The notes under the pieces are model-generated. The model saw only the letters and a list, made by a program, of their open reading frames with translations. It ran no database searches and was not told the origin of the DNA. From IMG/VR virus record IMGVR_UViG_3300027143_000001, positions 45,119-109,118 of that record: a stretch of 64,000 nucleotides of DNA, one strand, 5' to 3'. Shown one piece after another: positions 36,542 to 62,027 of the stretch. A program made the translations under genes and the position numbers. How positions within the stretch are numbered: position 1 is the stretch's first letter; every line of letters begins with the position of its first letter. The DNA comes from a virus.

Positions 36542-37652
36542 GGCTTTTAAACATGTTATAGTATTTGTGATACTGTGCTTTACGGTTCATCTCCCATGTG
36601 CGCTGCATTTCGCGGAAGTTTGGCGTATTCACAAAAGATATTGCGTTGTTACGTGCACCACGAAGTCTCTGTTCAATCAGCTGGATAAATCCGCTGACGT
36701 TCTCACCGCTCATAAACAGGTTCTCATAGATGCGCTGTTTAATAGCGTACTCATAGAACTCGTTGACCAGCGGATGGTCCATAACAAGCAGGTTACCCTG
36801 GTCGTCTTCCATCAGGCTTTGGTAGTTAATGAATACTACGCCTTCATCAAAGTTGGTCACCAGGAATCCGTTCTTGATATGACCTGCAAATACAGCACGG
36901 CTTTGTAAGTTGAGACAGTCCGCACTAACACTTTTGCTTTTGTCAATACGCATTTGTATCAGCTTCTTTGACTCATACTTGCGACCCATGTTGTTATAGA
37001 TCACCTTGGGTATGTGGTAGAAAGGATCATTGACCACTTCTGCAGGACAACCTCCGGGCTGTATCTGCGTAACGGTGTTTGTAGGCGTATCAGGTACACC
37101 TACAATTACAAACTTAATAGTGTTCTGCAGGGGTGCTGAAGAAATGATCTGTACCGTATTTGGTGTATTGGGATCTACCTCAAAACTCAGCATGGTGCCA
37201 TCCGGAGCAAATGCTTCAATGACCAGATTCTGTGTGTTAAGGTTATGGGTAATAGTGGTCGTACCTGTAGGTACATCAATGGTTGTTACAAAATGACCCA
37301 GGCTGTTTTGCAGGTAGTATTGCTGAGCCAGGTAAATACCTTCCAGTACGCCTTCTGTCTTTCCTTCCACATAAGTCTTATCGTCCTCTGGAGGATATGC
37401 ATAGTGATCTTCACAGATCATGGCAAAGTTTAGTACATAGAAATCAGGTGGTAATTTAGCCTTACCATTGTGCACTTCTAATGCTTTACTGCGTGATGGA
37501 TTTACTTTTAGTCCCAGCTCATAGCTTACACGCTGCGCCACTTTGATCAGTTGCTGGGGATCTATCATCCCTTCCAGGTCATAGCTTTTCAAATCCAGCT
37601 TTATACTGTCAAGAAGTTCGTCAAAGGTTCTGTATTGTGTTTCAGTCAGCAT
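36531..37652 (-). CDS. Tail ring/adaptor-like protein (373 aa) with an internal beta-rich insertion
   Basis: KAKLPPDFY and GVVFINYQSLMEDDQGNLLVMDHP segments typical of crAss-like ring proteins; insert TTTITHNLNTQNLVIEAF. Confidence 0.55.
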   Translation of the reverse strand: MLTETQYRTFDELLDSIKLDLKSYDLEGMIDPQQLIKVAQRVSYELGLKVNPSRSKALEVHNGKAKLPPDFYVLNFAMICEDHYAYPPEDDKTYVEGKTEGVLEGIYLAQQYYLQNSLGHFVTTIDVPTGTTTITHNLNTQNLVIEAFAPDGTMLSFEVDPNTPNTVQIISSAPLQNTIKFVIVGVPDTPTNTVTQIQPGGCPAEVVNDPFYHIPKVIYNNMGRKYESKKLIQMRIDKSKSVSADCLNLQSRAVFAGHIKNGFLVTNFDEGVVFINYQSLMEDDQGNLLVMDHPLVNEFYEYAIKQRIYENLFMSGENVSGFIQLIEQRLRGARNNAISFVNTPNFREMQRTWEMNRKAQYHKYYNMFKSHDV

Positions 37653-37662
37653 GGATCAGGAA

Positions 37663-38337
37663 TTAAGGGCGTTCTATGTGTTTGTTGTCACTGGCAGCGT
37701 CCTGTGGGATCTGCAACAGCATCATCATGTCTTTGGCCACAAGCTGTTCAATTTCTGCAAACAGGAACTCAGGCACATGCATTTCTTTATCTTGTATGTA
37801 CTGGCAGTTGTCAGCAGGGTCACAGTTGTAGTGAGACACGTCTCCCTCAAACACACCTTCCACGCGAACAGCGTCCCAGTCCATGTTAGGGAAGTACAGG
37901 TACCCGTTAAGGAACCAGTAGTATTTTTTCTTGTTGTACTTGAAGTTCTTCTGGCGGCTCATTTGTTCAAAGCTTACCGGGTAAGTAGGCTGCAAATCTT
38001 CTGAGAGGTCAATTGAAGTAATACTTCTGATAAGCGGACCCCAGTAGCCTTCCATAGTAGCAGGAAGTTTCTCTTTGCTGCGCTTAAAGTAGCAGCCGGT
38101 ATCAACACCGCGACAGCCTGCTTGAGCTCTGTCTACGTCAATAAGCTCTACAAAGTCCAGCGTCTGAAAGATGCTGTTAAACTTCATGAGCTTGTTCAGG
38201 TTATCCTGGCGACGCATCAGCAATTTAGCATGCTTCATCACCATGGAGTAGATAAAGCGGTCCGTCATAAAGGCGTCCTGTCTGGTAGCCTTATACTGGT
38301 TACGCACGCGGGATATTACTTCTCCAATGGTTATCAT
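37663..38337 (-). CDS. Tail ring-like structural protein (224 aa)
   Basis: Synteny; YYWFLNGYLYF...VRVEGVFE pattern recalled from crAss-like ring proteins. Confidence 0.55.
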   Translation of the reverse strand: MITIGEVISRVRNQYKATRQDAFMTDRFIYSMVMKHAKLLMRRQDNLNKLMKFNSIFQTLDFVELIDVDRAQAGCRGVDTGCYFKRSKEKLPATMEGYWGPLIRSITSIDLSEDLQPTYPVSFEQMSRQKNFKYNKKKYYWFLNGYLYFPNMDWDAVRVEGVFEGDVSHYNCDPADNCQYIQDKEMHVPEFLFAEIEQLVAKDMMMLLQIPQDAASDNKHIERP

Positions 38338-38915
38338 AGGTCAAATTCGTTGTAGTTCTCAAGGGTTATGGCGTCCTGTTTGGTCTGCTCCATCGCCTTG
38401 ATATTATCGCGGTAGACATAGCTGATCTTCTTGTGAGGGTCAACCATAACATACCGTTTCCAGTACTCAGGATAGGTGCGTCCGACTTCACGCTTGAACG
38501 CGCGTGTGGGATTGAATGCCCAAAGTTCATGGTGCTTGAAGCGGTACTTGCTGCCGAATGTCGTATAGAAGATCTTGGCCAGGTAGTTATCACTCTCCCA
38601 GTTGCGGTGTTGGACAACCTTGCGGAAGTCTGCGCTTAGCTTGAAGTCCACATTTTTAGACTTCTTGGGCGGACATGTTCCTATGAAGATGTGGCCCAGC
38701 TGGTTGGGTAGCTCAACCCCGTCACGTACATCAATGGCCGTTTGCCATACAATACCGTTGAAGGTTTTGATTACCTCTTTGATCTCCTTGTCATTCAGCA
38801 CATTACAGCCTGGGACCTTTTCCCGTAGCTGCTCAATAAATGCCGCGTTCAACATTCCAGACGCACACTTCCTGTAACGGGGTGCGTGCAAATCTGGTTT
38901 CTTTGCTGCTTTCAT
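38334..38915 (-). CDS. HU/IHF-like DNA-binding protein (193 aa)
   Basis: IKEVIKTFNGIVWQTAIDVRDGVELPNQLGHIFIG resembles the HU helix-to-beta-arm transition; basic; IHF-like genes are known in crAss-like structural modules. Confidence 0.55.
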   Translation of the reverse strand: MKAAKKPDLHAPRYRKCASGMLNAAFIEQLREKVPGCNVLNDKEIKEVIKTFNGIVWQTAIDVRDGVELPNQLGHIFIGTCPPKKSKNVDFKLSADFRKVVQHRNWESDNYLAKIFYTTFGSKYRFKHHELWAFNPTRAFKREVGRTYPEYWKRYVMVDPHKKISYVYRDNIKAMEQTKQDAITLENYNEFDL

Positions 38916-38920
38916 ATTCC

Positions 38921-38940
38921 CTACACTAAGAATTTACAAA
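38921..38940 (-). promoter_or_regulatory. Phage-specific repeated promoter-like motif, copy 2
   Basis: TTTGTAAATTCTTAGTGTAG upstream of the 38915 start. Confidence 0.6.
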
Positions 38941-38964
38941 AAAATGAGTAGATATTAAAGAGAA

Positions 38965-40278
38965 TCAGAGAGTATATACAAACTCACTGATCAATCCTTT
39001 GTGCTCGTCATGCAGGTGCAGGATTGCACTGCGCTTGTTGCCCACGTACTTGTTGTGGTAATGGTAGTAGTCTGAGCTGGTCAGCGCGGGAATGATGCGG
39101 GTCACAAACCCGTGCTCTTCATTCTCTGTGACAAACTCCTTGGTCTTGCGCCCGTGGTAGTGACCGGTGTACAGCATGCGGTGCTGGCACATGCCCCATT
39201 GCTCAGGAAACTCTACGGCAAACACCAGGGGATTGTTTTTGGCAGATACATCACCGTGTTCAAAACACAGCATGTTCTCTCCATACTTGAGCACTTTACG
39301 CTCTGCATATTCAATGTTGAAACTAACGGTAGACCATTCCCTGAATACCTGCTTAACAGCATGCAACAGGTGAAAGGAGCTCAGACGGTCATGATTACCT
39401 GGTACAAATACCACTTCCACGTTTTGTGCAAAGTGTGACAGGGTTGTCACGGCTTGACAGATTGCGTCAAATGCCTTCAGGTATGTATCGGTAGCGCTTT
39501 CAGAATTTTCCACCGGCGTACCCTTGGTGGTGGTTCCCCCAAAGGTATCCATATTCAGTGTATCTGGACCAATAACCAGTACAACTTTTTCCAGGAAGTA
39601 GTTCTTGTGTGCTTTGTCTATGAGATACTTGACGGCATCGTTCATGATCACACCCATATCTTCATTGCCTGTCTTACCAAAGTGCAGGTCCTGTAAAGAA
39701 AAAACCCCGCAAACCTTTTCCTGTGCTGTAACGTTAAGGAAGTAGGATTCGGGGGCGGGCATGGCAGGCAGGTCGTAGTTTTCCAGCAGTTCCAGAAACG
39801 AACTTTGCAATTGCTCTGCTTCTGGTTTCTTGCTGACAAGTGCTGAGATTTCCCAGCGGTCACTCTTTTCCTTGTTCCAATACTGCGATAGTTTCCACTT
39901 GCTGGTATCAATCTGCAGGATGCGGATAATCTCCTCAGCTGTCTTGGGTTCTGTAGTTGCAATACCTGTGATCTTACTGGTACCGCTTTCCAAGTCTTCA
40001 TGTATACTTACGCGTTTGCCTGTTTCTTCAGGCGTCTCCACCGTCTCCAGTGCAGATAAGATTTCTTCATCAGTTTTGCGGTAGCCTTTCTTACTCAGTT
40101 CTTTTTCTACCAGTTCAATGACCACGTTGTCAATGGTGTCACCCACGCGGGCAACTACTTCCATGACTTTGTCTTTGATCTTGAGGTAATGAGAAGTGGG
40201 GATACCTAGTCTGGCCGCCTCAGCTTCCGCTGATTTTTTGCGCTTCAGACTGTGATAGACAGCTGAAATAATGGTCAT
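38965..40278 (-). CDS. Calcineurin-like metallophosphoesterase with N-terminal extension (437 aa)
   Basis: Motifs in order: QDLHFG, IGPD, PGNHD, FEHGD, TGHYH. Confidence 0.85.
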   Translation of the reverse strand: MTIISAVYHSLKRKKSAEAEAARLGIPTSHYLKIKDKVMEVVARVGDTIDNVVIELVEKELSKKGYRKTDEEILSALETVETPEETGKRVSIHEDLESGTSKITGIATTEPKTAEEIIRILQIDTSKWKLSQYWNKEKSDRWEISALVSKKPEAEQLQSSFLELLENYDLPAMPAPESYFLNVTAQEKVCGVFSLQDLHFGKTGNEDMGVIMNDAVKYLIDKAHKNYFLEKVVLVIGPDTLNMDTFGGTTTKGTPVENSESATDTYLKAFDAICQAVTTLSHFAQNVEVVFVPGNHDRLSSFHLLHAVKQVFREWSTVSFNIEYAERKVLKYGENMLCFEHGDVSAKNNPLVFAVEFPEQWGMCQHRMLYTGHYHGRKTKEFVTENEEHGFVTRIIPALTSSDYYHYHNKYVGNKRSAILHLHDEHKGLISEFVYTL

Positions 40279-40308
40279 AGGGTCTTAGAGGATATTGGGC
40301 TTATGTTA

Positions 40309-40341
40309 CAAATGTATATACAAAACTCGTTGGTTTACAAA
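40309..40341 (-). promoter_or_regulatory. Bacteroidota sigma70-type promoter for the phosphoesterase gene
   Basis: Minus strand TTTG (40341-40338), 21-nt spacer, TACATTTG (40316-40309). Confidence 0.75.
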
Positions 40342-40350
40342 TGTTTGTGC

Positions 40351-40382
40351 AAAAAAGAACCCCCGGTTACCCAGGGGCACTC
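40351..40382 (-). terminator. Intrinsic terminator after the fibre gene block
   Basis: Minus strand GAGTGCCCCTGG-GTAA-CCGGGGGTTC followed by T6. Confidence 0.8.
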
Positions 40383-40420
40383 CCATTCGTCAGGAAAACC
40401 AACAAACCTGATTCATGTTA

Positions 40421-42061
40421 TTACTTAGGTTTATTAAACTGGCAGTTGAATACAGAAGGTCCCAAGTCGGCAAGGTTAGAGGGTATATTGTAATAGGTGC
40501 GGTCTCTTTGAGAGAAGTTAAAGTTGGTAATGCTTGGCGCATATCCTTTGACGCTCACAATCTCAGCAAATTGGCTGTCCCCAGGGTTAAAACCTGGATT
40601 AAAAACACCAATGAACTTTGCGTTGTGAGGGTAGAGTGCATTTGCACCACCACCAATACCTGTTTGTCCAGGGTTTAATGTAGCAACAGTGCTAATGCTT
40701 TGACCTTGCAAAACACCAAGACTTGTTCTTACTATTTTGCGCACGCCATCAACTGCAGATGAAGGGACATCCCATCCGGTCAGCACTGTTCCTCCATAAT
40801 CATTACTTATTGAAGTACTTTTGTTAAAAGTCATGACCATACCGTTAGGCAACGTTATCAATTTGGACATGTTGCTAAACGATCCTGAGGTCGTATTTAC
40901 AGAATATGACATGGCAATGATGTTCATGGTTTGCGTTACCGGATCAAGTACCAGAATGCCATTTGAAACATTGAGATTGGCCTGAGTATCCACCGCAATC
41001 CTTGGGACGCAGTAGATCTTCAGGGTATTGATGTCATGACTGGCATCACGAGGCTTTTCCAAAAATGCAGACTGTATCTGAATATTTTTTGTCATACCTG
41101 TATAGGTTGTTCTTAAATTAGGCGCAGACACCAGTTCTCCACTAGTCCCCCACGCACTTTGTTTGACATAAAAAATGCGTCCGCGTCCTTTTCCAGGCAT
41201 CAGATATATACACCCACTGGGGTGAACAATGGCATCTGAAATTGCAGTAAAATTCCGCGCTGACGCACTATTTGACCCTGCTGAATCCGTAGCGTATGCA
41301 GGGGTAAAACCCGTTGTGTCTGGGTAATCTGTATAGGTTGTACCAGCTTCATCTCTCCAGCTCAGGACTGATTGTCCAAAAGGCGCAGTAGTTGCAAAGT
41401 AATTTGAGTAATAACTGTCTTCCACCGTGTCAGCGGAAGCATTTGAAGTAGTGGTAATTCTGAAAGACTGAGCATATACCGAAAACACGTAGATCTTATT
41501 GTCAGTTCCCAGTACCGCACTACTTATTGCGCGGTTAGTAATGAATGTGGCACCGCTTGGGCGCAACATGTCTGTGACTTTCCAAAGTTCACTGTTTGGA
41601 TTGAATATCACCCACTTGTTGTCATTGCTTCCACATTGCGCAGGAGGAAAGTATATCAATCCATTTGATGCTAATATTCCTGTGTTGAACCTGAAAAGTG
41701 CATTGTCAGTTGTATTACTGCTTACGGCACTAGGCGCACCCCATGATGGTTTTGCAAACCCACTTCCGTTAGCTGTTACACCGTTATCTGCCACCAGATA
41801 TGAAATGGTGGGCGGGGTGTAATTGGTGGTAGCTGTGTTGCTCGTACCAGGAACAATCTTCATGATCACAAAAGCCTCGTAAGTTCCTGACACATTGAAA
41901 GCAGTGGCTCCCAGTATGGCGTACATATTTCCGTTAGGGGCAAGCGTGGGTTTTGTAAACAACCCTATGTACGACGCACTACCGTATGCTCCTGCAAGTG
42001 GTGCAATATCACGTACGCTGTAGCCCCATGTTGCGGCCTGGTGTGTTCCTAAAGATATCAT
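40421..42061 (-). CDS. Putative tail fibre/receptor-binding protein, beta-propeller-like (546 aa)
   Basis: Repeated L(A/G)x(N/D)GxxY-like units (LAPNGNMY, LASNGLIY, LGTDNKIY, HPSGCIY, LPNGMVM); S/T/N-rich. Confidence 0.5.
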   Translation of the reverse strand: MISLGTHQAATWGYSVRDIAPLAGAYGSASYIGLFTKPTLAPNGNMYAILGATAFNVSGTYEAFVIMKIVPGTSNTATTNYTPPTISYLVADNGVTANGSGFAKPSWGAPSAVSSNTTDNALFRFNTGILASNGLIYFPPAQCGSNDNKWVIFNPNSELWKVTDMLRPSGATFITNRAISSAVLGTDNKIYVFSVYAQSFRITTTSNASADTVEDSYYSNYFATTAPFGQSVLSWRDEAGTTYTDYPDTTGFTPAYATDSAGSNSASARNFTAISDAIVHPSGCIYLMPGKGRGRIFYVKQSAWGTSGELVSAPNLRTTYTGMTKNIQIQSAFLEKPRDASHDINTLKIYCVPRIAVDTQANLNVSNGILVLDPVTQTMNIIAMSYSVNTTSGSFSNMSKLITLPNGMVMTFNKSTSISNDYGGTVLTGWDVPSSAVDGVRKIVRTSLGVLQGQSISTVATLNPGQTGIGGGANALYPHNAKFIGVFNPGFNPGDSQFAEIVSVKGYAPSITNFNFSQRDRTYYNIPSNLADLGPSVFNCQFNKPK

Positions 42062-42067
42062 CTGTTA

Positions 42068-43414
42068 TTATACTACTACGTTTGTAAGGTCACCGAACAT
42101 GTACCACAACGCGTCACTTCTTTTTACCAAAGTGGCAGCACTGTATCGTGTTCTTAAATATTGCATGCTGTTGGCACTTTCAAGGGTTACGCCTATTCCG
42201 CCTATGATGCGCACCTGTCCTGTTCCCTTTTGCATAATCGTCACCTGGTAGCCAACCGGAAAGTTGGTTAATCCTGCTGGAACAGTGATGGTTACAGGGT
42301 TGGAAGATTCGGCCAATACAACAACACCTGCATCTGTACTGGGAAAAGTTGCAGGGCCTCCTCCGGCCTGAACAGATCCTACAGCACCATCTGCTTTCAA
42401 TGTATATGCAACAACAGCACTCGTCAAATCTCTGAATCCTGCGACTCCTGTTGAACTGTTGGCTCCGTTGGAACCTGCAGGTCCCTGAGATCCTGTTGCA
42501 CCTGTCGCTCCTGTTGCTCCTGTTGGTCCAGCAGGGCCAGCGGGTCCCGCGGGGCCGGTAGCTCCAGCAGGTCCGGCAGGTCCGGTTGCACCCGTAGGTC
42601 CAGCAGGACCGGCAGGGCCAGCAGGACCAGTAGCACCAGGTAAACCATTGGCACCATTTGCTCCGGCAGGTCCAACCAGGCTAATACCCGTTGTTGGCCA
42701 TACCCCTCCTACTTTTGGGCCTATGAGAATGTTGGTGTCGGTTCTGATATAGTAGTCGCCATTGTTACCAATTGAATTGTTAGGCGCAAAGTTTCCTGAA
42801 AGGATTAAGTTTCCAGCAGGTCCTTGTGGGCCAACGCTTCCTCCAGTACCAGGAGGGCCTGCGATCTGGCCTAGATTCACCCAGCCGCTTCCATCCGCTG
42901 ATGTACTAGTAGGGTCATAAACATATATAGTCCCATTGACACCACTATCCACATCCGTTAACATGACAACTGTCAAGGGATCAGGTGTAGGAAAGTCTAC
43001 AAGCATGGTTGCATATGTAGATGTATATCCCTCAACCGTTACAGATTGTCCGGGAGCACCGGGAGGGCCTTGGGCACCTATGGCGCTGATCTCAATAACC
43101 TGTCCAGGCGTATCCACCACCACAGGGTCAATTCCGCCATTTAAAGTGACACTGCCGTCTAGTGCAGGTTGCAGGGTAAAGTTATTTGCACCACCAATGT
43201 TTCCATTGTTAGACAAACCTTGCAGTACGTCAGTCATGTTGTCGCCAGTATCAGCAACACCAGGAATGGCTGGTCCGTCATAACGAACACAAGATGTATT
43301 CATTACCTCTGGGCATGGCTCACCATCTACGCAGATGGGAGGTGCAGGTACGGTAACCGGAGGAGTAGTTGGCTCCTGAGGGCATCCGCAAGTTGAAGGG
43401 TTATCAGGGTACAT
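42068..43414 (-). CDS. Collagen-like fibre protein (448 aa)
   Basis: Cys-rich N-terminus (CVRYDGP), several G-X-Y runs, C-terminal VTITVP...[14 protein letters not shown]...W.MFGDL beta module. Confidence 0.8.
42458..42673 (-). repeat. Collagen-like (Gly-X-Y)24 coding repeat
   Basis: [30 protein letters not shown]...GSNGAN, 24 uninterrupted triplets. Confidence 0.9.
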
Positions 43415-43438
43415 ATCTTAAATAATGTTTTTCATAGT

Positions 43439-45025
43439 TTAGGGTTGGGCACACATGTTATAAGAAACACCTGCACAAAGCGGTACGGTTTGACCAGTGA
43501 TTGACTGCACACATCCCAAAATGCGGGTGACAGTTCCACATTGTCCGGTTCCTGAACATAGTGCGGTTGTTACGGCAACATAGTCAAGAGTTGCTTGAGA
43601 ATTACCTCCTGTAATTGACAGAACCTCTGTGTAGTAGCTTTGTACACCACATTCATTGGTAAGTTCAAAATACAAGGTTACATCTATCGTTGCGCCTGCA
43701 TTGCTAATAGGAGATCCTGTAGAAGAGTTCTGAAGAGTTACAGTTATACGCTTATTGGTTTCATTGTATGTAGTTGTCGATCCTGCAGTTGGTGTACAAT
43801 CAACAGTTGTTGTTGGAAGAATGGTCTCCTCAATATCTATGCACATCGGAATTATAGAAGACCTAAGCACTGCAATTTGCGTCACAGGCGCACTTCCACA
43901 GCCATAAACTGCTGTTACACGCACTGCGTAGTTTTTGTTCTCATTAGCAAACCCGTTTAAAATTGTAAGAGGTAAAGTTGCTGGATGAGATAAAATAGTC
44001 TGAGGTAATAAAGATGGACCTGATGGAGTGCTACCTATAAGATTAAAAATCTCAACAACGTACTCAATTGGAGGTTCACCAGTTCCATACAAGGGATCAC
44101 TCCAGGAAATCTGAAAATTATTTGATGTCACATTGTTGATGCTTAATCCCCGTACAGGTAAAGGAGAACACACAAGTACTTCCTGGCAACAGTCAATGAT
44201 CTTTGCTCTCATATCGCAGATGGTGATCCACATGTTGGAAAGCGTTTCTGCTAGTGTACTAGGATTACTTACCCAGCCTGGCAAATCTGCCATAATTGTT
44301 CCAGGTGTCATCAGTGAATCAACTGATTCAATAGTTGCACATCCTGCATAATCTGTCACAGCATTAATCTGGGCAATAGATCCCAGTACAGCACTTAAGT
44401 CACAAAAGGTAGACTCAAAGTTGGCAAACGCCATTTGGATAGGCAATACCAAACCAGGAGAAGGACCACTGGCACATTGCGTAGTGATGTTAATCACAGG
44501 AGATCCTGTAGTAGGCGTCTGATTTTCCAGAATTGTTACACGCTGGTCAAGGCTGTCAAGTTGTGTTTGGTGATCGTCTGTGATTGTGTACAGATCACAA
44601 ACAGCATTTGCAATAAGATCAATGTACTCTTCCTGGGTAACCTGTGTAATAGTATTGCCATCCCCGTCAATATATTGCAAACAGGCTGGTAAATCGTAGA
44701 GCATGTCAGGACCTGGTGTTACAGGATCGTCTGTCAACGCTTCACATAATTTATTTACAATAAGCTGGATAAGTGCTTCCTGTGTTTCAGGAGTAGTGTC
44801 ACCCACACCCAGCAAACAGTTTACATCTATGCCCGCTACATCAAACAGATTATCATTTAGCTCGCATACTTTAAGTGCAAGCTGATAGACCACATCTGTG
44901 ATTGTGTCCCCGCTGCACAATGACAGGCAGGAAATATCCGGTCCCTGCCACACCACACAGTTGCTGGACAACGGTGTACAGTTGGCATTTGGATCAGGAT
45001 TGCTATTTGACCTTACAGGGTTCAT
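43439..45025 (-). CDS. Cys-rich tail fibre/hub protein with FN3-like domain (528 aa)
   Basis: N-terminal SNCVVWQGPDISCLSLCSGD similar to the collagen gene N-terminus; heptad stretch; PVRGLSINNVTSNNFQISWSDP...YAVRVTAV fibronectin-III pattern. Confidence 0.65.
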   Translation of the reverse strand: MNPVRSNSNPDPNANCTPLSSNCVVWQGPDISCLSLCSGDTITDVVYQLALKVCELNDNLFDVAGIDVNCLLGVGDTTPETQEALIQLIVNKLCEALTDDPVTPGPDMLYDLPACLQYIDGDGNTITQVTQEEYIDLIANAVCDLYTITDDHQTQLDSLDQRVTILENQTPTTGSPVINITTQCASGPSPGLVLPIQMAFANFESTFCDLSAVLGSIAQINAVTDYAGCATIESVDSLMTPGTIMADLPGWVSNPSTLAETLSNMWITICDMRAKIIDCCQEVLVCSPLPVRGLSINNVTSNNFQISWSDPLYGTGEPPIEYVVEIFNLIGSTPSGPSLLPQTILSHPATLPLTILNGFANENKNYAVRVTAVYGCGSAPVTQIAVLRSSIIPMCIDIEETILPTTTVDCTPTAGSTTTYNETNKRITVTLQNSSTGSPISNAGATIDVTLYFELTNECGVQSYYTEVLSITGGNSQATLDYVAVTTALCSGTGQCGTVTRILGCVQSITGQTVPLCAGVSYNMCAQP

Positions 45026-45252
45026 AGGGTATTGATTCTTTCAATTACAGCATCATGTGTACAGCCTGCGCTGTCAACGTTACATCCACACGCTTTTCGC
45101 TCCTCTCCTCTCATATAGAGATTTCTCAGATCATCTGCCAGGTCAGCATCCACTTTTGCGCGACAGGTCTTAAGACCAAAGCGCTTGCGCTGCATGTCCT
45201 GAAAAAGAGCATCTGCAAAGAGCTGGTTGATATGGGTTAGCGTGTCAGTCAC
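45022..45252 (-). CDS. Small structural-module protein (76 aa, GTG start)
   Basis: GTGA and ATGA overlaps with both neighbours. Confidence 0.6.
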   Translation of the reverse strand: MTDTLTHINQLFADALFQDMQRKRFGLKTCRAKVDADLADDLRNLYMRGEERKACGCNVDSAGCTHDAVIERINTL

Positions 45253-45413
45253 GATTTAGTGAAGTTGTTGTTATTATTGATATTGGTGTTCGTGTATTTT
45301 AGCTGAGCTTCATACACTTTGATACAATTTGAGCATACAGAACGTCCGTCTGATGCAGTGCGAACCTGGCATGAGCAGCCAAGGTTGGTGTTACAGTTGT
45401 TACACTTTGCCAT
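45249..45413 (-). CDS. Small Cys-rich protein (54 aa), not in ORF track
   Basis: Hand translation MAKCNNCNTNLGCSCQVRTASDGRSVCSNCIKVYEAQLK...; fills the gap exactly, has an AACCAAC leader, and its TGA overlaps the next GTG. Confidence 0.7.
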   Translation of the reverse strand: MAKCNNCNTNLGCSCQVRTASDGRSVCSNCIKVYEAQLKYTNTNINNNNNFTKS

Positions 45414-45428
45414 ATACTTGTTGGTTGG

Positions 45429-45995
45429 TTAGCAGTTACAGGTAGAGCAACATCCGCTCTGGTACTTTTTCAACAGCTTCTGTGCGTAGGCAAGCATGTT
45501 CACCGCATCTTTTGGCGAGTGACAATATTCAGCCTTTGCTTTGGCTGCTTCTAAAAACATTTTGATGTAGCGCAGGTCATGCATTTTATCATGCTGCTCA
45601 GGAGTGGGCTCACACGCTGCAAGCTGCACTTTGCACACTTCCTTATAGTAGGTGTTCAATGTAGCAGTGATTCTCAGGTGGTAGTATTCCACGTACACCT
45701 TGTCATTTGGAGAAACACTATACTTGATGGTGTAAAGACCGTCTGGCAAATCTGCCACGGCAGGATTGTTCACCGGCATCAGTCCCAGGTCATAAGCAGA
45801 AAAGTTCTTGCAGAATCCAGGGGTTAAATCCTCTGTGATGTATACAGGCACTGTATAGCCAGGAACATAGATATCCAGGCGCTGGCAATCCACGTTCAAT
45901 CCTTGTGCGTATACAGAGGCGTCGCAGATGCGCAGGATGTTCTCACACGCTGTGTCTGGAACATCTAGGGATAAATGGTGTTTAAGTGCGGCCAT
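45429..45995 (-). CDS. Conserved structural protein (188 aa)
   Basis: DLPDGLYTIKYSVSP motif recalled from crAss-like tail/hub proteins; ACCCTATG start context. Confidence 0.55.
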   Translation of the reverse strand: MAALKHHLSLDVPDTACENILRICDASVYAQGLNVDCQRLDIYVPGYTVPVYITEDLTPGFCKNFSAYDLGLMPVNNPAVADLPDGLYTIKYSVSPNDKVYVEYYHLRITATLNTYYKEVCKVQLAACEPTPEQHDKMHDLRYIKMFLEAAKAKAEYCHSPKDAVNMLAYAQKLLKKYQSGCCSTCNC

Positions 45996-46019
45996 AGGGT
46001 ATAGTGGGCAGATTAATCT

Positions 46020-46039
46020 CTACAATAAGAATTTACAAA
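46020..46039 (-). promoter_or_regulatory. Phage-specific repeated promoter-like motif, copy 3
   Basis: TTTGTAAATTCTTATTGTAG right after a terminator and upstream of the 45995 start. Confidence 0.6.
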
Positions 46040-46051
46040 AAATACCTCTAC

Positions 46052-46089
46052 AAAACAAAAAAGGAGGCGAGTTTCCTCGACCTCCTTTT
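46052..46089 (-). terminator. Intrinsic terminator (possibly bidirectional) after the capsid operon
   Basis: Minus strand AAAAGGAGGTCGAG-GAAA-CTCGCCTCCTTTTTTGTTTT. Confidence 0.85.
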
Positions 46090-46111
46090 CATAGGGTAGG
46101 GTTAATTAAGA

Positions 46112-47578
46112 TTAAAGAGTGCTGATCAAGCTTGCTTCGCTTCCACCAGCAATAAGCCAGTTGTTCATGAATTGCTCAAAATTTGAGTTTGTTCCGTTGG
46201 TAACAATCTTCACCAAGTACTGGTCAGCATCCATAGTGCCTGATGGGTTGCTCTTGCGAGGAACACTGTGCAGGATGTAGTATGCTCCGTAGCGAGCAGC
46301 GCGAGATACGCCATTGCTATGTAATGTAGTAACATCTAATACTTCACGCATACGTGGATCATTGTTCCATGGCTCTTGCATGTAACGGTTAGACAAGATC
46401 AACTCGCGGATGATGGTCTCACCGAATCCGTTTCCTTGTGCAGTTGCTTGAGTTTCAAAAACACCACCTGTAGCTTCGTTAGTTACAAGCACGCTTTCAA
46501 AAGTCTTAGTTTCGTCAGACTGAACTCCAGTTGAACCGAAACACTTGGTAGCGCAAGGCTGATCCTTATCGTCTACAACAGAAGCGTAGATCTGGATTGG
46601 CTGCAACTCGTAGTGGTCAGTTGGCTGGAATGAACAGTTACCGAAAGTGGTATCTGCATAAGCACCAGTCAATTCCAAGAACGCGTCGTTGGTAGCTGGT
46701 GTAGCATCTGGAACGTATGAGCTGAACGCAGTAGTTACGTTGTTGTAGAACTTAACAGGAGTTGCAGCAGAAACAGTTACTGTCACAGCTGAACCGTCAG
46801 CATTCACCAAACCAACAGTTGTTCCACTTACGTAGTTATAACTCACAAAAGTGTTTGCAGGAATACCTGCACCAACTACTCTTTGGTTGGCAACAATACC
46901 TGTAGCAGAAGCAACAGTCAAGCTAGTTGCAGCAGCAGCAGTACCAGTTGTTTCAGCAGCTAAGCTGTATACTTTTGGCGATACAAACTGCTTTAAGATT
47001 GGACTTGCAGCCAATTGCTCTTTCCATTGAAGCAATACGATCAACGGATCTACAGCTGCACCAGGAGTAGCGCAACATCCAGTGTATGCGTCAACAGTCA
47101 TGTATGCGTTGTGCGTTAAGAAACGAAGTGCAGGAGAACCTTTAACGTCTACACGTAAACGGTAAGTGGTGTCACATACAAGTGCCGTGCAGTCAGCAGC
47201 GGGTTTTACCACAACGATGTTCTGAACAGGAGCCTCAGCTGGGATGTAGTAGAAAGCACTAACATATCTAGGGTTGATACCCTTAGATTTGATAGTCTCT
47301 TTGTACCCTCCGTGGAAAGGTCCGATCTTATCGTTTGCATGGAAGCTTCCTTGAGCCAAATAGATCATAGGAAGTTGCGCATACGTTGGGAAGGAACCTG
47401 GGTTCAAATCCAAAACTTTGTGAGTCTTAGCGTTGATTACACCAATCTGTCCAGCCAAAAGGGCTGTAGTAGCAATGGTACCTACTCCATTAGGAGCGCC
47501 TGTGTCATTTCCGTCTACAAACGGAGTTGCGTTCGTAGCTAACATGAGCTTCTGAAACGCGTGGGGAAAATAAGCCAT
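46112..47578 (-). CDS. Probable auxiliary capsid/major structural protein (488 aa)
   Basis: Last gene of the capsid operon before a terminator; Ala/Thr-rich beta insert (TSLTVASATGIVANQRVVGAGIPANT). Confidence 0.5.
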   Translation of the reverse strand: MAYFPHAFQKLMLATNATPFVDGNDTGAPNGVGTIATTALLAGQIGVINAKTHKVLDLNPGSFPTYAQLPMIYLAQGSFHANDKIGPFHGGYKETIKSKGINPRYVSAFYYIPAEAPVQNIVVVKPAADCTALVCDTTYRLRVDVKGSPALRFLTHNAYMTVDAYTGCCATPGAAVDPLIVLLQWKEQLAASPILKQFVSPKVYSLAAETTGTAAAATSLTVASATGIVANQRVVGAGIPANTFVSYNYVSGTTVGLVNADGSAVTVTVSAATPVKFYNNVTTAFSSYVPDATPATNDAFLELTGAYADTTFGNCSFQPTDHYELQPIQIYASVVDDKDQPCATKCFGSTGVQSDETKTFESVLVTNEATGGVFETQATAQGNGFGETIIRELILSNRYMQEPWNNDPRMREVLDVTTLHSNGVSRAARYGAYYILHSVPRKSNPSGTMDADQYLVKIVTNGTNSNFEQFMNNWLIAGGSEASLISTL

Positions 47579-47614
47579 AGGGTTATAAGAATTATGAGGT
47601 TAGATAAAAAAAAA

Positions 47615-48046
47615 TCATTGTAAAAACAGGAGCTTGTACTTGATGGAGTTGATTGTGCTTTTCACATTGTCCAGGTCGTTTCCTATCTCACTGTAAGGCA
47701 TCACTGACTGCAGGTCATTGACCATTGTCTTGAGCTCTCTTAAATAAGATAATCCATCCTCTACACTGTTCAAAATTTTAGGAGAACTTTCTTCACCATA
47801 CTCCAGCAACTTTTCATGTGCACCCTGAAATCCTTCTGCCAGTGTATCAGCATGTCCGGGCAATGCGTCATAGAGTTCATTTAAAGCTTTGTGGCTAGCA
47901 AATGAACCTGGTCCTGTTACCTTCAGGTGTAGTTTGTGAATACTTGTAGCAGCATTCATCAGTTCTGATACAACCATTGCAGTACGAGCTTCCAGCGTGT
48001 TTGTTGACGCACCTTCTACAGGTATGATAAGTTTACGCTTCTCCAT
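47615..48046 (-). CDS. Ferritin/Dps-like protein (143 aa)
   Basis: HKLHLKVTGPGSFASHKALNELYDALPGHADTLAE resembles the Dps HWxxxG..F...H...E.Y......D..AE pattern. Confidence 0.7.
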   Translation of the reverse strand: MEKRKLIIPVEGASTNTLEARTAMVVSELMNAATSIHKLHLKVTGPGSFASHKALNELYDALPGHADTLAEGFQGAHEKLLEYGEESSPKILNSVEDGLSYLRELKTMVNDLQSVMPYSEIGNDLDNVKSTINSIKYKLLFLQ

Positions 48047-48747
48047 TAGTTATTTCCTGTTGCGTTGGTTTTGTTACGTTGATACTGTGTGATAGACTCA
48101 ATGTCTCCAGCCAGTATGCTTGCAGCGTCATCAACAAGCATCTCTGCTACATCATCCTTAAACTCGCAGGTTACGTCTGCTGTAACAGCTTGTCCTGTGT
48201 TCAGGTTTATGCATCCTGCAAACTGTACGTCTATGGGTTTGCGGTAGTAGGTAAGCTTTGTGTCAGCAACTGTAAACTTGTTGTTGTGATAAATTCTGAA
48301 TTTGTTACCCTGTAATGTGCAGAAGGTTTCTCCCCACTCTGCACTGGGGTTTCTCAGAGAATCCACCAGCAGTTGACTAACATCTGCAACCGGTGCCAGG
48401 TATACACCGATGGCACGGTCCGGGCAGCAGTCTGTGTGGCTCTTGGCACTGATACGTTTGAAATACAAGTAGTCGGGTGGGAGTACCTGCGTTTCAAAGT
48501 ATATCAACTGGTTTGCACCAGTAAGCGGGGCTTCTACCAATAAACGTTGCAAGTCATCGATCAGGACATCAGAAGACTCATCGCCCTCCTTGGTCTGGTT
48601 AACACCATGAACCTGGCGTCTGACAAACTCCAGTTGTGCTTTGTTGAACGCTTCCGCGATCTGCCAGCACTCGATGTTGTCATAGTCCATAGAGGCCAAC
48701 TTATTGAGGCGCTCCTTTATCTTGATCTGTAACAGTGCGTTGTTCAT
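48046..48747 (-). CDS. Head-tail ring/adaptor protein (233 aa)
   Basis: AFNKAQLEFV, LPPDYLY and LTYYRKP motifs; position two genes after MCP as in Crassvirales. Confidence 0.6.
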   Translation of the reverse strand: MNNALLQIKIKERLNKLASMDYDNIECWQIAEAFNKAQLEFVRRQVHGVNQTKEGDESSDVLIDDLQRLLVEAPLTGANQLIYFETQVLPPDYLYFKRISAKSHTDCCPDRAIGVYLAPVADVSQLLVDSLRNPSAEWGETFCTLQGNKFRIYHNNKFTVADTKLTYYRKPIDVQFAGCINLNTGQAVTADVTCEFKDDVAEMLVDDAASILAGDIESITQYQRNKTNATGNN

Positions 48748-49760
48748 CAGTTATTCCACATTTTCTCTACGTTCTTTGTTAAGTCCATCAGGATCTCCTC
48801 GTTCAAAGGATTCTTCAGGTACTCAACCACATCTGAAGGATTCTTACCAATCATTGTCGCACTCTTCATGTGATAGATAAAACCATCACCACGGGTTGCA
48901 ATCAACTTGTACAGGTTTGCATCCTTTACAATGGCGCGCAACTTAAGCGTTTCCATATCCAGGCCGTTTACGTCCAGGAAGCGCTGTGCTGTCTTCTTCT
49001 TATCCTTCTCAACCGTTTCACCGTTGATATACTTATCCATGTTATCATAGAGTACGTCAAGCGGAGTGGTTTTACGATACTGTGTAGAATTGGGATCAAC
49101 AATCTTACACACGTAGAACAGCTTATTGGCGTTCTTGTCAAATAATTTCTGCAATTCAGCCAAAGCTTTGTTGCGTAATTTCTTCACTTCAGTTCTGATG
49201 GAAGCGGTCTCCTCAAACTTGTCTAAGTAGAATTTAGCTCCAGGACGTCTGCGTGCTTCTTCAAGGCTTGGTGCAATCAAGGAAAATCCTCCAGCTTCAA
49301 TAGCCTTAAGCTTGATCAGATCGTGTGGGTCTTTGATTGGATCTAAGAACACAGGATCATTGCCCATGCGAATCACAATTGTCTCCCAGAACTTTGCATT
49401 GTCTGGTCTAAGCAACTTGACTTTGTTCCAGAACTCCGGATCCTTTGGATCAATCACGTTAGATACCAGTTCTTTTTCAAGCTGCGCTACAGTGACGCGA
49501 ATCTGATTGATCTTTGCTTCACGCTCATCGTCATCCAGTTCTTTTAGTTCTGGTGCAAATTCATTGAGGCCCGTCATGTAACGACTGATACCATTAATGG
49601 TCAGACAGATTAGCGGCTCCTCGTGAAAACAGTTTTCAAACAAGGCCATGTTGTAACGCTGTAGACCCATGTTATCAGCAGAGGTGTCTACAAAAGGTCG
49701 GATGCTTACTTGTGCACCCGTCTTCAATGAGTTGTGTTTCTCAATCAAAGTAACTTCCAT
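48747..49760 (-). CDS. Conserved protein downstream of MCP (337 aa; possible portal-vertex protein)
   Basis: Start moved to MEVTLIEK (49760) because the track's extension lies in a structured RNA region; AACCAAC leader. Confidence 0.6.
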   Translation of the reverse strand: MEVTLIEKHNSLKTGAQVSIRPFVDTSADNMGLQRYNMALFENCFHEEPLICLTINGISRYMTGLNEFAPELKELDDDEREAKINQIRVTVAQLEKELVSNVIDPKDPEFWNKVKLLRPDNAKFWETIVIRMGNDPVFLDPIKDPHDLIKLKAIEAGGFSLIAPSLEEARRRPGAKFYLDKFEETASIRTEVKKLRNKALAELQKLFDKNANKLFYVCKIVDPNSTQYRKTTPLDVLYDNMDKYINGETVEKDKKKTAQRFLDVNGLDMETLKLRAIVKDANLYKLIATRGDGFIYHMKSATMIGKNPSDVVEYLKNPLNEEILMDLTKNVEKMWNN

Positions 49761-49789
49761 AAAAATTTTTAGTTGGTTTGGTGTTCTTC

Positions 49790-49969
49790 TGCAACATTGG
49801 TGGGGCATTGCTGCCTTTAAGCTCCTGAACCACGTCACGGTTGTTGCTTCTCAGGAGTACCTGAACCTTTCGGTCCAGGCTTGGCTGTACATTACTAATG
49901 CACAGAGGGAGGTGGTCATAAGTTAGCCTGCAAAGACCAGGAGGATTTTAATGCCCTCCTGGTTTGCAG
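49790..49969 (-). ncRNA. Putative structured RNA between MCP and the next gene
   Basis: Five hairpins, two closed by GNRA tetraloops; G-U pairs favour the minus strand; possible 6-bp pseudoknot. Confidence 0.55.
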
Positions 49970-49986
49970 TATTACCTTCAGGGTTC

Positions 49987-51645
49987 TTAGAATGAACCTC
50001 CAGTGATGGGGTTGCGCATCACGATTTTGAGAACTTTGGTTGGGTCCTTAACCCAGATAGAAGGCATCATCTGAGTCATGAATACACGGTAACCGTTGAA
50101 GTTACCTACAGAGGCAAACCCTTGAGAGCGACCCATGTAGTCCATAGTACCGTTTTGATAGAACCACTTCAACTCGCTGTCCCACTTCAACTTCAACAAG
50201 AAGATGTTGTCGTTGGTGTTGTCAGTGATGTCGAACACGATAAAGTTGTAAGAAGACAATGGGAAACCGTCAATGATTGGGTTCTCCACATCGTTAGTGT
50301 GTACGTTGTCAAAAGCAGGGTTCAACACAAACTTCACGTTTGCCAAGAATGGGATAGTGTAGCTGGTGAACGCAAACCCGAAGTTCAGGTCCATAGCGTT
50401 GTTACCAGAGATAGCACCAATACCGTTCTTAGACATGTCTGTGAACAAAGAGTTGTTCTGTGTAGCACTTGCACCTGCGATGTTGAAGGCCTCTTGCTTG
50501 ATCGCCTCGTTAACCATACGCATACCGGCCATACCAGTTTGAACGATGATCTGACGAGAAGGATCTGGACCTTTGAAATCAACCTTACCATTGTAGAAGT
50601 TGAAGATCTCAGAGCGGAACAATTCCAAAGAGAAACCATTCTTGTTGTAGATTCTCTTGAACGAGTTGTCCAATTGATCCCACAAACCTACTGACAAACG
50701 AATGTCATCTGGTCCGTCTTGCTTGATTCTTCCACCCTTACCCCACATCAGGTAAGTTTCAATGTCATTGGCAATCTTGCTCAAGTGAGCTGATTCCATC
50801 TTAGTAACGAATGTTCTGGTCAAAGAACCATTGTCATACGCCTTCTTGATGTAATCTTTACCAAGTTTAGAAACCATTGCATCGATGTTAGTCAATGATG
50901 GGTCGTTTGCGATGTTAGCATCAAATGAGCGCCAGATCTCAGTTACAGGAACTGTACCGTCAGCGTTCATACCGCCTTTCATCATCATCTCTGCACGAGA
51001 AGATACAGAGTAGTGTACGTTAGCTTCAGCTCCACCTACAAAGTTGTAGTACTCACGGAAGCCAGCGTTCAATTCTCCGATGTCAGAGAACTTCTCACCG
51101 TACTCACCACGAGCAGAACCTTTGCGGAAGAACTTAGTTCCAGGCTTCAAATACTTGCCTGTCTCCAAGCCAGTGTCGTTGCTGTTGTTTACCAACTGTA
51201 CAGTGTAGATGAAACCATCACCTGCAGGAAGGATGTCATCAGCAGTAACGAACAATTCCAAACCTTTGAACTTGTCATAGGTGATGATGTCGTTGTGACC
51301 GAAAGCACGCTTGTTCAATTTGATCTTGAACGTAGTACCGTCGATACCTACTGTTCCTGTCTCGATGTTCTCAACTACATAAGGAAGATCCTGTACAATA
51401 GGAGTCTGCCATTTGTACTCGCCACGAGCGTTGTCTACTAAGATGGTATTCTTACCACCGAATGATGCCATTTGATAAAGGGGCATCTCTACCTTTTGGG
51501 ACATGGCCCACAAATCAACCGGACCTAAATCCATAGGTTCGGTGTTTTTGAGCATGTTCACCAAATGGTAGCTGTCCACGTGTGAAGACACCTTGTAGTT
51601 GGTGTCACGTAGGAACAAACCATTGTTTAAAACTGGTGTTGCCAT
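49987..51645 (-). CDS. Major capsid protein (552 aa)
   Basis: Order terL-portal-acidic protein-MCP; GEYKWQT, YLMWGKGG...GLWDQL and TGMAGM segments typical of crAss-like MCPs; strong codon bias. Confidence 0.85.
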   Translation of the reverse strand: MATPVLNNGLFLRDTNYKVSSHVDSYHLVNMLKNTEPMDLGPVDLWAMSQKVEMPLYQMASFGGKNTILVDNARGEYKWQTPIVQDLPYVVENIETGTVGIDGTTFKIKLNKRAFGHNDIITYDKFKGLELFVTADDILPAGDGFIYTVQLVNNSNDTGLETGKYLKPGTKFFRKGSARGEYGEKFSDIGELNAGFREYYNFVGGAEANVHYSVSSRAEMMMKGGMNADGTVPVTEIWRSFDANIANDPSLTNIDAMVSKLGKDYIKKAYDNGSLTRTFVTKMESAHLSKIANDIETYLMWGKGGRIKQDGPDDIRLSVGLWDQLDNSFKRIYNKNGFSLELFRSEIFNFYNGKVDFKGPDPSRQIIVQTGMAGMRMVNEAIKQEAFNIAGASATQNNSLFTDMSKNGIGAISGNNAMDLNFGFAFTSYTIPFLANVKFVLNPAFDNVHTNDVENPIIDGFPLSSYNFIVFDITDNTNDNIFLLKLKWDSELKWFYQNGTMDYMGRSQGFASVGNFNGYRVFMTQMMPSIWVKDPTKVLKIVMRNPITGGSF

Positions 51646-51686
51646 AGTTAGGGTTAGGGATTAAGTGTTAATATAGGTGTACGTTG

Positions 51687-52940: not shown

Positions 52941-53049
52941 AATTGGTTTATGTTGGTTAGCTCTTCATATATAATCTACAAGAATAAACCTGTAGAATTT
53001 ACATCTTAGAGAGGTAAGCTTTACATTTTCCGCACTATATCGCTAAGGC

Positions 53050-61984: not shown

Positions 61985-62027
61985 AGGGTTAGTTGGTTTA
62001 TTCAGCAAACTGCTGAGGTTTACAGTA

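What the first reader, a model, noticed from the sequence alone, without database searches (positions are those of the whole stretch)
40351..40415. Candidate sRNA whose loop is antisense to the AACCAAC leaders of several phage genes
Seen: between the fibre-gene stop and its terminator the minus-strand RNA forms UCAGG-[UUUGUUGGUUUU]-CCUGA (40411-40390), then the terminator hairpin, an sRNA-like layout. The loop's GUUGGUU is complementary to AACCAAC, found just upstream of four same-strand start codons: scaffold (CUAACCAACAUAAACCAAUUAUG, 52940), the 49760 gene (CAAACCAACUAAAAAUUUUUAUG), the 45413 gene (AACCAACCAACAAGUAUAUG) and the 61984 gene (UAAACCAACUAACCCUAUG). Inference: a 3'UTR-derived trans-acting RNA that tunes translation of these genes, or a dedicated guide for a phage translation-initiation signal. 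The stem is only 5 bp, so the structure is tentative.
Basis: partly seen in the sequence, partly recalled or inferred. Interest (0 to 1): 0.7.

Follow-up and report, generated by a model that had tools for sequence, protein, structure and literature searches.

The report
Conserved anti-leader RNA hairpin, crAss-like phages
At the end of its tail-fibre genes this river phage carries a small RNA hairpin, kept in hundreds of related phages, whose exposed loop mirrors a phage-specific signal in front of several phage genes; this suggests, but does not prove, an RNA-on-RNA control of protein synthesis.

Summary
On the minus strand, 40417-40351 is a two-part stem (CAU/AUG, UCAGG/CCUGA) with a 12-nt loop UUUGUUGGUUUU, then an intrinsic terminator. 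A covariance model finds one copy per genome. It lies at the same place (fibre block | hairpin-terminator | promoter | exonuclease gene) in 84 of 89 related loci. All five stem pairs covary, G.U wobbles fix the RNA strand, and the loop is almost invariant down to 40% protein identity. By eye it is also in the isolated Leptolyngbya phage Lbo-JY46. Rfam has no such family.

AACCAAC is the commonest of its 35 letter permutations in phage leaders: 65 copies, against 20 for its reverse and about 8 at the median. Orthologous scaffold, 337-aa and 54-aa gene leaders keep it. Two Bacteroidota genomes lack it in leaders and rRNA.

The sRNA reading is only partly supported. Loop variants are not compensated in the leaders. 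An AT-rich subclade and Lbo-JY46 keep the loop with little or no leader motif. RNA contigs show no small species.

Best reading (about 0.4): a 3'-end riboregulator pairing with these leaders. Main rival (about 0.33): a protein or host-factor site.

The scan had already found this element on another genome (e1-5971432).

The parts
40384..40417 (-). Conserved stem-loop: outer helix CAU (40417-40415) / AUG (40386-40384), inner helix UCAGG (40411-40407) / CCUGA (40394-40390), and 12-nt loop UUUGUUGGUUUU (40406-40395).
   Evidence: Sequence and fold. Covariation on 31 and on 65 distinct relatives. In a stem-finder pass that mis-placed a few stems, 44 G.U/U.G against 5 A.C/C.A within stems fix the sense strand.
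40351..40378 (-). Intrinsic terminator: stem GCCCCUGG/CCGGGGGU with loop GUAA (40378-40359) and U-tract UCUUUUUU (40358-40351).
   Evidence: All 7 pairs covary in relatives.
40421..42061 (-). Upstream gene (546 aa, no family match), the last gene of the tail-fibre block. The hairpin lies in its 3' untranslated end.
   Evidence: ORF list. No PHROG or Pfam match. The neighbour 42068-43414 matches tail-fibre PHROGs. This gene is replaced by unrelated genes in relatives while the hairpin stays.
40309..40341 (-). Bacteroidota-type promoter of the exonuclease operon (TTTG 40341-40338, 21 nt, TAcaTTTG 40316-40309). Its spacer holds AAACCAAC (40336-40329), which is complementary to the loop.
   Evidence: Sequence. 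Same layout in relatives. The consensus TTTG / TAnnTTTG is from my own knowledge.
38965..40278 (-). Downstream DNA-repair exonuclease gene (437 aa), used as the anchor to find relatives.
   Evidence: phrog_704, E = 1.9e-49.
52941..52958 (-). Leader of the 417-aa gene called scaffold by position (no family match): AACCAAC 52958-52952 plus AAACCAA nearer the ATG at 52940.
   Evidence: The motif is kept in 15 of 17 genomes. Loop-only duplex energy -9.9 kcal/mol.
49761..49778 (-). Leader of the 337-aa gene that follows the capsid gene: AACCAAC 49778-49772, ATG at 49760.
   Evidence: AACCAA is present in 53 of 61 further distinct orthologous leaders. RNA contigs run across it.
45414..45430 (-). Leader of the 54-aa gene: AACCAACCAAC 45430-45420, overlapping the stop codon of the gene before it; ATG at 45413.
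   Evidence: There is no room for a promoter here, which argues for a role in the mRNA.
61985..61998 (-). Leader of the 85-aa gene: AACCAAC 61998-61992, ATG at 61984.
48047..48070 (-). AACCAAC 48070-48064, 17 nt before the ATG at 48046 of the 143-aa DUF5856 gene and inside the preceding ORF.
   Evidence: It is not kept at the orthologues, so it is a weak member of the set.

Best explanation
The element is an uncatalogued, conserved RNA stem-loop at the 3' end of the late (capsid to tail-fibre) transcript of a large clade of crAss-like phages. The stem and the terminator that follows give a stable 3' end that displays 11-12 unpaired bases, UUUGUUGGUUU. I think it most likely acts through this loop by base pairing with (A)AACCAAC(AA) in the short A/C-rich leaders of a small set of phage genes: the scaffold-position gene, the 337-aa gene after the capsid gene, a 54-aa gene and some early genes. 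The pairing sites lie 3-25 nt before the start codon. Host mRNAs here have no Shine-Dalgarno sequence and depend on open A-rich leaders, so pairing would most simply block ribosome loading and lower output of these genes as late transcripts build up. The RNA could act as a processed ~65-75-nt 3'-end fragment or as the 3' end of the long mRNA. Shown here: the structure, the strand, the single copy, the conservation, the complementarity, and the specificity and conservation of the leader motif. Inferred: that the two RNAs meet, the sign of the effect, and the existence of a separate small RNA.
For: Structure and conservation: one copy per genome; 84 of 89 loci; strong covariation; G.U wobbles show it is RNA of the gene strand. 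The loop is nearly invariant while the flanking gene and the stem change. Partner: among the 35 permutations of A4C3, AACCAAC is first in leaders, with 65 copies in 1360 leaders of 16 genomes against 20 for its reverse and about 8 at the median; it ranks first in 12 of 16 genomes. Orthologous leaders keep it in otherwise unalignable sequence: scaffold and 337-aa genes in 15 of 17 genomes, and the 337-aa gene in 53 of 61 further distinct leaders. They often extend to AAACCAACAAA, the full complement of the loop. Loop-only duplexes score -9.6 to -11.8 kcal/mol for six motif leaders against -3.7 to -6.6 for six other leaders. The motif is phage-specific: 1 and 0 copies in 187 and 125 leaders of two Bacteroidota genomes, and no UUGGUU or AACCAA in their 16S rRNA or in one rRNA operon. 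G017, the one large genome with no hairpin found, also lacks the motif at all nine leaders examined. G006 has loop UUGGUUGG and leaders ACCAACCAA. Precedent: Bacteroides sRNAs pair with translation initiation regions, and 3'UTR-derived candidates exist (PMC7366714).
Against: The loop stays invariant where the proposed targets are missing. G019, G021 and G024 lack the motif at scaffold and 337-aa leaders. G019 shows no enrichment of AACCAA. Lbo-JY46 has the hairpin but no enrichment in 46 leaders. Loop variants are not compensated: G011 (G to A), G013 (an inserted A) and G014 (3' half changed) keep AAACCAACAA leaders. G004 and G007 have ACCAACCAA leaders with the standard loop. With all 7-mers of the loop complement counted, leaders give 139 hits against 54 in shuffled leaders but 97 for the reversed words, so much of the signal is A/C-rich composition. 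If one assumes an A/C-only motif and a U/G-only loop, a chance match is about 5% (my estimate). There is no evidence of a small RNA or of any interaction.
Confidence: 0.4

Rival explanations
1. The loop is a sequence-specific binding site for a conserved protein or host factor, such as an RNA-binding protein, a ribonuclease or a termination factor. It would mark or protect the 3' end of the late transcript. The leader motif would be an independent phage translation signal, and the complementarity would be secondary or accidental.
For: The loop is invariant from 94% down to 40% protein identity, and in Lbo-JY46 at 28%, whether or not the leaders carry the motif. Loop variants are not compensated. 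The position directly before a strong terminator is fixed. The closing pairs GG/CC are also strongly conserved, as expected for a protein-recognised hairpin.
Against: No candidate protein was found. No S21 gene is present, and the published RbpB in-vitro motif GUAGGAUA does not resemble the loop. This reading leaves unexplained why the top phage-specific leader word is the exact complement of the loop, and why the hairpin-less G017 also lacks the motif.
Confidence: 0.33
2. It is only an accessory of transcription termination or mRNA stability: a second hairpin that pauses the polymerase or blocks 3' exonucleases, with no trans-acting role.
For: It always sits 6-20 nt before an intrinsic terminator, at an operon border that is followed by a new promoter.
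Against: A structural accessory needs a stem, not an invariant 11-nt loop. Here the stem drifts freely and the loop does not. Each genome has many other terminators but only one carries this hairpin.
Confidence: 0.15
3. It is a cis switch. In read-through transcripts the loop pairs with AAAACCAA just beyond the U-tract (AAACCAAC at 40336-40329 in the window), forming a pseudoknot around the terminator that marks or regulates read-through into the exonuclease operon.
For: About a third of relatives have AAA(A)CCA(A) directly after the U-tract, and the window and G001 have it in the promoter spacer.
Against: It is absent in many relatives that have the same loop (for example L215-L218, L224, L228). 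The segment is transcribed only after read-through of a strong terminator.
Confidence: 0.05
4. It is a DNA-level signal, such as a hairpin promoter of the N4 type, an origin or a packaging site, with AACCAAC displayed on the plus strand.
For: On the plus strand the loop reads AAAACCAACAAA, the same word as in the leaders. crAss-like phages carry a virion RNA polymerase whose promoter is, as far as I know, not defined; earlier scan notes say the same.
Against: A stem-finder pass, which mis-placed a few stems, counted 44 G.U/U.G pairs against 5 A.C/C.A, so the plus-strand hairpin would be full of mismatches. There is one copy per genome, and no plus-strand gene follows. Two motif leaders leave no room for a promoter (45430-45413 and 48070-48046). 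RNA contigs run across the motif at 49778-49772.
Confidence: 0.03

Closest known systems
3'UTR-derived base-pairing small RNAs of bacteria (CpxQ, SroC, DapZ: my own knowledge) and Bacteroides trans-acting sRNAs such as GibS and the FopS family (PMC7366714, PMC11697453)
   Same: It lies at the 3' end of a coding transcript and shares that transcript's intrinsic terminator. It has a short conserved single-stranded seed complementary to the translation initiation regions of several mRNAs. The host phylum has no Shine-Dalgarno use, and there sRNAs are known to pair at start regions.
   Different: It is phage-encoded and the proposed targets are the phage's own genes. The seed sits in a hairpin loop, not a 5' single strand. 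No processing site, small species or interaction has been shown. The loop is conserved even in relatives without the leader motif.
Loop-displayed antisense and kissing RNAs (CopA/CopT, OxyS-fhlA, phi29 pRNA loop-loop AACC/GGUU: my own knowledge)
   Same: A 6-9 nt recognition sequence is presented in a hairpin loop and pairs with an open partner.
   Different: The partner here is a linear leader, not a loop. It shares no sequence or structure with those RNAs beyond the accidental AACC/GGUU letters of pRNA.
Intrinsic (Rho-independent) terminators
   Same: The 3' half (40378-40351) is a textbook terminator.
   Different: The upstream hairpin with its invariant loop is not part of any terminator definition, and it occurs at only one terminator per genome.
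Protein-recognised phage RNA hairpins (lambda boxB, MS2 operator, T4 RegA sites: my own knowledge)
   Same: A short stem with a sequence-invariant loop and a freely covarying stem.
   Different: The loop is much larger (11-13 nt), it lies at a transcript's 3' end, and no cognate protein is known.

Membership tests
Intrinsic terminator | G+C-rich stem of at least 5 bp, a short loop, then a U-tract on the transcribed strand | tested here: met
   Stem 40378-40359 has 8 pairs (6 G-C) and a 4-nt loop, followed by UCUUUUUU. It covaries in relatives. This applies to the 3' half only.
3'UTR-derived base-pairing sRNA | Lies downstream of a stop codon and shares the mRNA's terminator | tested here: met
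   The stop codon is at 40423-40421, the hairpin at 40417-40384 and the terminator at 40378-40351. No promoter-like site lies between them.
3'UTR-derived base-pairing sRNA | A discrete stable small species made by processing or an internal promoter | tested here: inconclusive
   Only assembled RNA contigs of river metatranscriptomes were available. Depth around 40171-40804 was about 0-2, and contigs cannot show ends.
3'UTR-derived base-pairing sRNA | A conserved single-stranded seed complementary to target mRNAs | tested here: met
   The loop is invariant and is the complement of the top leader word. Duplex energies favour motif leaders.
3'UTR-derived base-pairing sRNA | Seed and target sites co-vary or co-occur across relatives | tested here: inconclusive
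   For: G017 lacks both, and in G006 the loop and leaders match. Against: G011, G013 and G014 are not compensated, and G019, G021, G024 and Lbo-JY46 have the hairpin without the motif.
3'UTR-derived base-pairing sRNA | Demonstrated RNA-RNA interaction and a regulatory effect | not testable with these tools
   This needs gel shifts, probing, reporters or RIL-seq.
Any Rfam family | A match at the family's gathering score | tested here: not met
   The whole window gives only a tRNA. A permissive scan of 40250-40500 gives three chance-level hits of 13.8-17 bits, E = 1.2-3.
Shine-Dalgarno-like rRNA pairing of the leader motif | The leader word is complementary to an accessible stretch of host 16S rRNA | tested here: not met
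   No UUGGUU or GUUGGUU in the 16S of a Chitinophagaceae and a Flavobacteriales genome, whose 3' tail is GGCUGGAAYACCUCCUUU. These are stand-ins, because the host is unknown.
N4-type hairpin promoter (DNA) | The hairpin forms in DNA, occurs in several copies before early genes, and has a short 3-nt loop | tested here: not met
   There is a single copy, the loop is 12 nt, and the wobble pattern fits only the gene strand.

The most novel reading that the evidence does not exclude
The hairpin and the AACCAAC leaders together form a phage-private translation-initiation code for a host phylum without Shine-Dalgarno pairing. The 3'-end RNA would act as a trans or cis guide that either delivers ribosomes to, or withholds them from, a defined set of phage cistrons, for example by looping the 3' end of the 12-kb late mRNA back onto its internal leaders in the manner of plant-virus 3' translation enhancers. 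The loop would have a second, universally conserved partner on the ribosome or an RNA-binding protein, which would explain why it never changes.
Probability: 0.07. Interest if true: 0.9.

Novelty: new variant of a known kind. Interest (0 to 1): 0.6.

Why it matters
crAss-like phages are among the most abundant phages known, yet almost nothing is known about how they control gene expression after transcription. Their Bacteroidota hosts do not use Shine-Dalgarno pairing, so how particular phage mRNAs are selected for translation is an open question.

This element gives a precise handle on that question. It is a single, deeply conserved, covarying RNA with an 11-nt invariant loop, found in more than 250 uncultured genomes and, by eye, in one isolated phage. 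It has a short list of candidate target leaders that can be tested with compensatory mutations.

If pairing is confirmed, it would be, to my knowledge, the first regulatory RNA family described in this phage group, and an example of a phage regulating its own structural genes from the 3' end of their operon. If the loop instead binds a protein, the bait sequence is defined. Either way the family deserves an Rfam entry and improves annotation of operon borders in these genomes.

Tried and rejected
- **RNA contigs:** four river metatranscriptomes were laid on 37001-56000. They show that late genes are transcribed, with capsid and the 46112-47578 gene highest. They give no usable cover or ends at the hairpin. 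Contigs of two studies stop at 52951/52952, just 3' of the scaffold-leader AACCAAC; this is only a weak hint of a 5' end.
- **Recoding in window 1-10700:** this was an artefact of not listing open-ended ORFs. The stretch is the C-terminal part of a 4198-aa ORF.
- **Exact-pattern scan of viral contigs for the loop:** most of the 118 hits were chance, and only 9 scored with the model.
- **Other database searches:** a DNA search of the phage collection and a search with the 546-aa protein found no relatives.
- **rRNA pairing:** no complement in two Bacteroidota 16S rRNAs. The single ACCAACAA in one 23S is within chance expectation.
- **Phage S21 gene:** none found.
- **RRM protein RbpB motif from the literature:** no resemblance to the loop.
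- **Host identification through MAG contigs:** the MAG labels span unrelated phyla and so are binning artefacts.
- **Portal C-terminal AAACCAACAA site (G000 and G019):** explained by codon choice for Gln-Thr-Asn-Lys and not conserved elsewhere.
- **Promoter reading of AACCAAC:** suggested by earlier scan notes on other crAss-like phages, but disfavoured. The distance to the upstream promoter-like box and to the ATG varies, two sites overlap the preceding ORF, and RNA contigs cross one site.
- **tRNA CCA-end or T-box-like pairing (UGGU with ACCA):** considered from memory only. Nothing was testable, and there is no alternative antiterminator fold.

Full report
**1. What is in the window**

The window is the last 64 kb of a 109,118-bp IMG/VR virus record. 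Nearly all genes from 10.7 kb to 62 kb lie on the minus strand.

Read on that strand, the 546-aa gene 42061-40421 ends with UAA at 40423-40421. It is followed by these features:
- CAU (40417-40415)
- UCAGG (40411-40407)
- the loop UUUGUUGGUUUU (40406-40395)
- CCUGA (40394-40390)
- AUG (40386-40384), which pairs with the CAU
- a terminator with stem GCCCCUGG/CCGGGGGU (40378-40359) and U-tract (40358-40351)

Next comes a Bacteroidota-type promoter: TTTG at 40341-40338, a 21-nt spacer, and TAcaTTTG at 40316-40309. The consensus is from my own knowledge. The promoter serves a DNA-repair exonuclease gene (40278-38965; phrog_704, E = 1.9e-49).

The capsid protein is distantly related to those of crAss-like and Cellulophaga phages. 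Giant ORFs of 1756 to 4198 aa follow the exonuclease block. So this is a crAss-like phage of a Bacteroidota host, found in river metagenomes.

**2. The hairpin is a conserved, covarying, single-copy RNA**

As a single sequence the fold is unremarkable (z = -2.0). Relatives decide the matter.
- With the exonuclease as anchor, 35 of 36 viral loci show the same arrangement.
- A profile search found 253 relatives and kept 80. A further 8 are phage-sized contigs inside MAGs.
- A covariance model of hairpin plus terminator (R1) hits 84 of these 89 loci at the same position.
- R1 gives exactly one strong hit in the whole genome here and in every near-complete relative tested.
- On 65 distinct sequences, 95% of cells pair, every one of the five hairpin pairs has compensatory changes, and no shuffle or slid register comes close.
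- A simple stem finder, which mis-placed a few stems, counted 44 G.U/U.G pairs against 5 A.C/C.A inside stems. The structure therefore forms in the gene-sense strand, that is in the RNA.

The gene upstream of the hairpin is different in different relatives, and the stem sequence drifts. The loop core (U)UUGUUGGUUU(U) is almost invariant down to 40% exonuclease identity.

The hairpin is also visible by eye in the isolated Leptolyngbya phage Lbo-JY46, with stem AUAAA/UUUAU, loop UUUGUUGGUUG and then a terminator. R1 did not reach threshold there.

Rfam has no matching family.

**3. The leader motif is real and phage-specific**

- In the whole genome, AACCAAC occurs 7 times within 35 nt upstream of called starts, against 0.46 expected.
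- Controlling for composition: across 1360 leaders of 16 genomes, AACCAAC is the most frequent of the 35 orderings of four A and three C. It has 65 copies; its reverse has 20 and the median is about 8. It ranks first in 12 of 16 genomes.
- Orthologous leaders that otherwise cannot be aligned keep it. The 417-aa gene at the scaffold position and the 337-aa gene after the capsid gene carry it in 15 of 17 genomes. A 54-aa gene carries it in most. Some early genes carry it in the nearer relatives.
- For the 337-aa gene, 53 of 61 further distinct leaders have AACCAA, often as two tandem AAAACCAA copies.
- Many leaders read AAACCAACAAA, the full complement of the loop.
- Two sites overlap the preceding ORF and leave no room for a promoter (45430-45413 and 48070-48046).
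- RNA contigs cross the site at 49778-49772. So the motif acts, if at all, in the mRNA.
- In two Bacteroidota cellular genomes the word is not enriched in leaders (1 of 187 and 0 of 125). Their 16S rRNA holds no complement.

**4. Does the loop act on the leaders?**

*In favour*
- The complementarity is exact, between the only invariant single-stranded RNA found here and the top phage-specific leader word.
- Duplex energies are -9.6 to -11.8 kcal/mol for six motif leaders, against -3.7 to -6.6 for six other leaders.
- The binding sites lie within reach of the ribosome footprint.
- G017, the one large genome where no hairpin was found, also lacks the motif at every orthologous leader examined.
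- G006 has loop UUGGUUGG together with leaders reading ACCAACCAA.

*Against*
- The loop variants of G011, G013 and G014 are not compensated in the leaders.
- G004 and G007 share G006's leader variant but have the standard loop.
- An AT-rich subclade (G019, G021, G024) keeps the invariant loop although its scaffold and 337-aa leaders have lost the motif. G023 and G025 keep it at one gene only.
- Lbo-JY46 shows no enrichment in 46 annotated leaders.
- A broader test that counts every 7-mer of the loop complement gives 139 leaders, against 54 for shuffled leaders but 97 for reversed words. Outside the central AACCAAC, much of the signal is A/C-rich composition.
- The earlier scan report on another genome (e1-5971432) said that hairpin and signal change together. 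I could not reproduce that in general.
- No data here show a discrete small RNA.

**5. Verdict**

This is a new, widespread RNA family that marks the end of the tail-fibre operon of this phage clade.

The persistence of the loop without the leader motif means the loop probably has another conserved partner, or an additional one. A protein or host-factor site is the main rival, at about 0.33. Pure terminator accessory, cis pseudoknot and DNA-level readings are less likely, for the reasons given under the rivals.

The element works like a 3'UTR-derived, loop-seeded base-pairing RNA. Membership of that class remains unproven, because processing and interaction could not be tested.

Noticed in passing
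window starts at 40278, 45025, 45995, 47578, 61194, 61984 (minus strand): A second leader signature, (A)ACCCUAUG, lies directly before many start codons in this genome and in G001. TAACC-type words are among the most enriched words in leaders. Its meaning is unknown.
   Followed up: no
window about 53030-52960 (minus strand), and all relatives: Between the portal gene and the scaffold-position gene, every relative keeps a TAGCGATATAGT-like box. About 60 nt later comes AAAGTTTATT..TGTAGATTATATATGAAGA, just before the leader. It looks like a conserved late promoter or operator that differs from the host TTTG/TAnnTTTG type.
   Followed up: partly
window 40336-40329, and after the U-tract in L213, L214, L220, L222, L249, L257, L259, L284: AAA(A)CCAA, complementary to the loop, lies just beyond the terminator in about a third of relatives. 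In this window it sits in the spacer of the exonuclease promoter.
   Followed up: partly
L349-L428 (leaders of the 337-aa gene): Most relatives carry two tandem AAAACCAA copies directly before the ATG and a small perfect hairpin about 10 nt upstream, for example GGUUACAUUUGUAACC. This is the region that another first-reader note called a densely structured RNA after the capsid gene.
   Followed up: no
L449/L450 = PP438436.1 (Leptolyngbya phage Lbo-JY46): This isolate shares capsid, scaffold-position, portal and exonuclease genes and the hairpin with the clade. Its intergenic regions carry TAnnTTTG boxes typical of Bacteroidota promoters, although the listed host is a cyanobacterium. The true host may be worth rechecking.
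   Followed up: no
L338-L345 (MAG contigs): Phage-sized contigs of this clade (114,697 and 120,283 bp) are filed in MAGs labelled Pseudomonadales, Rickettsiales, Sphingomonadaceae, Campylobacteraceae, Chitinophagaceae and Flavobacteriales. These are most likely binning artefacts.
   Followed up: no
window 61354-61429 (minus strand): A tRNA gene scores 42.8 bits in Rfam, but ARAGORN cannot assign its anticodon.
   Followed up: no
window 46112-47578 and 49987-51645: In four river metatranscriptomes the capsid gene and the 488-aa gene have by far the highest contig depth of the region laid, 37001-56000. The 488-aa leader keeps a conserved UAACCC(U)UAA word in all relatives.
   Followed up: no
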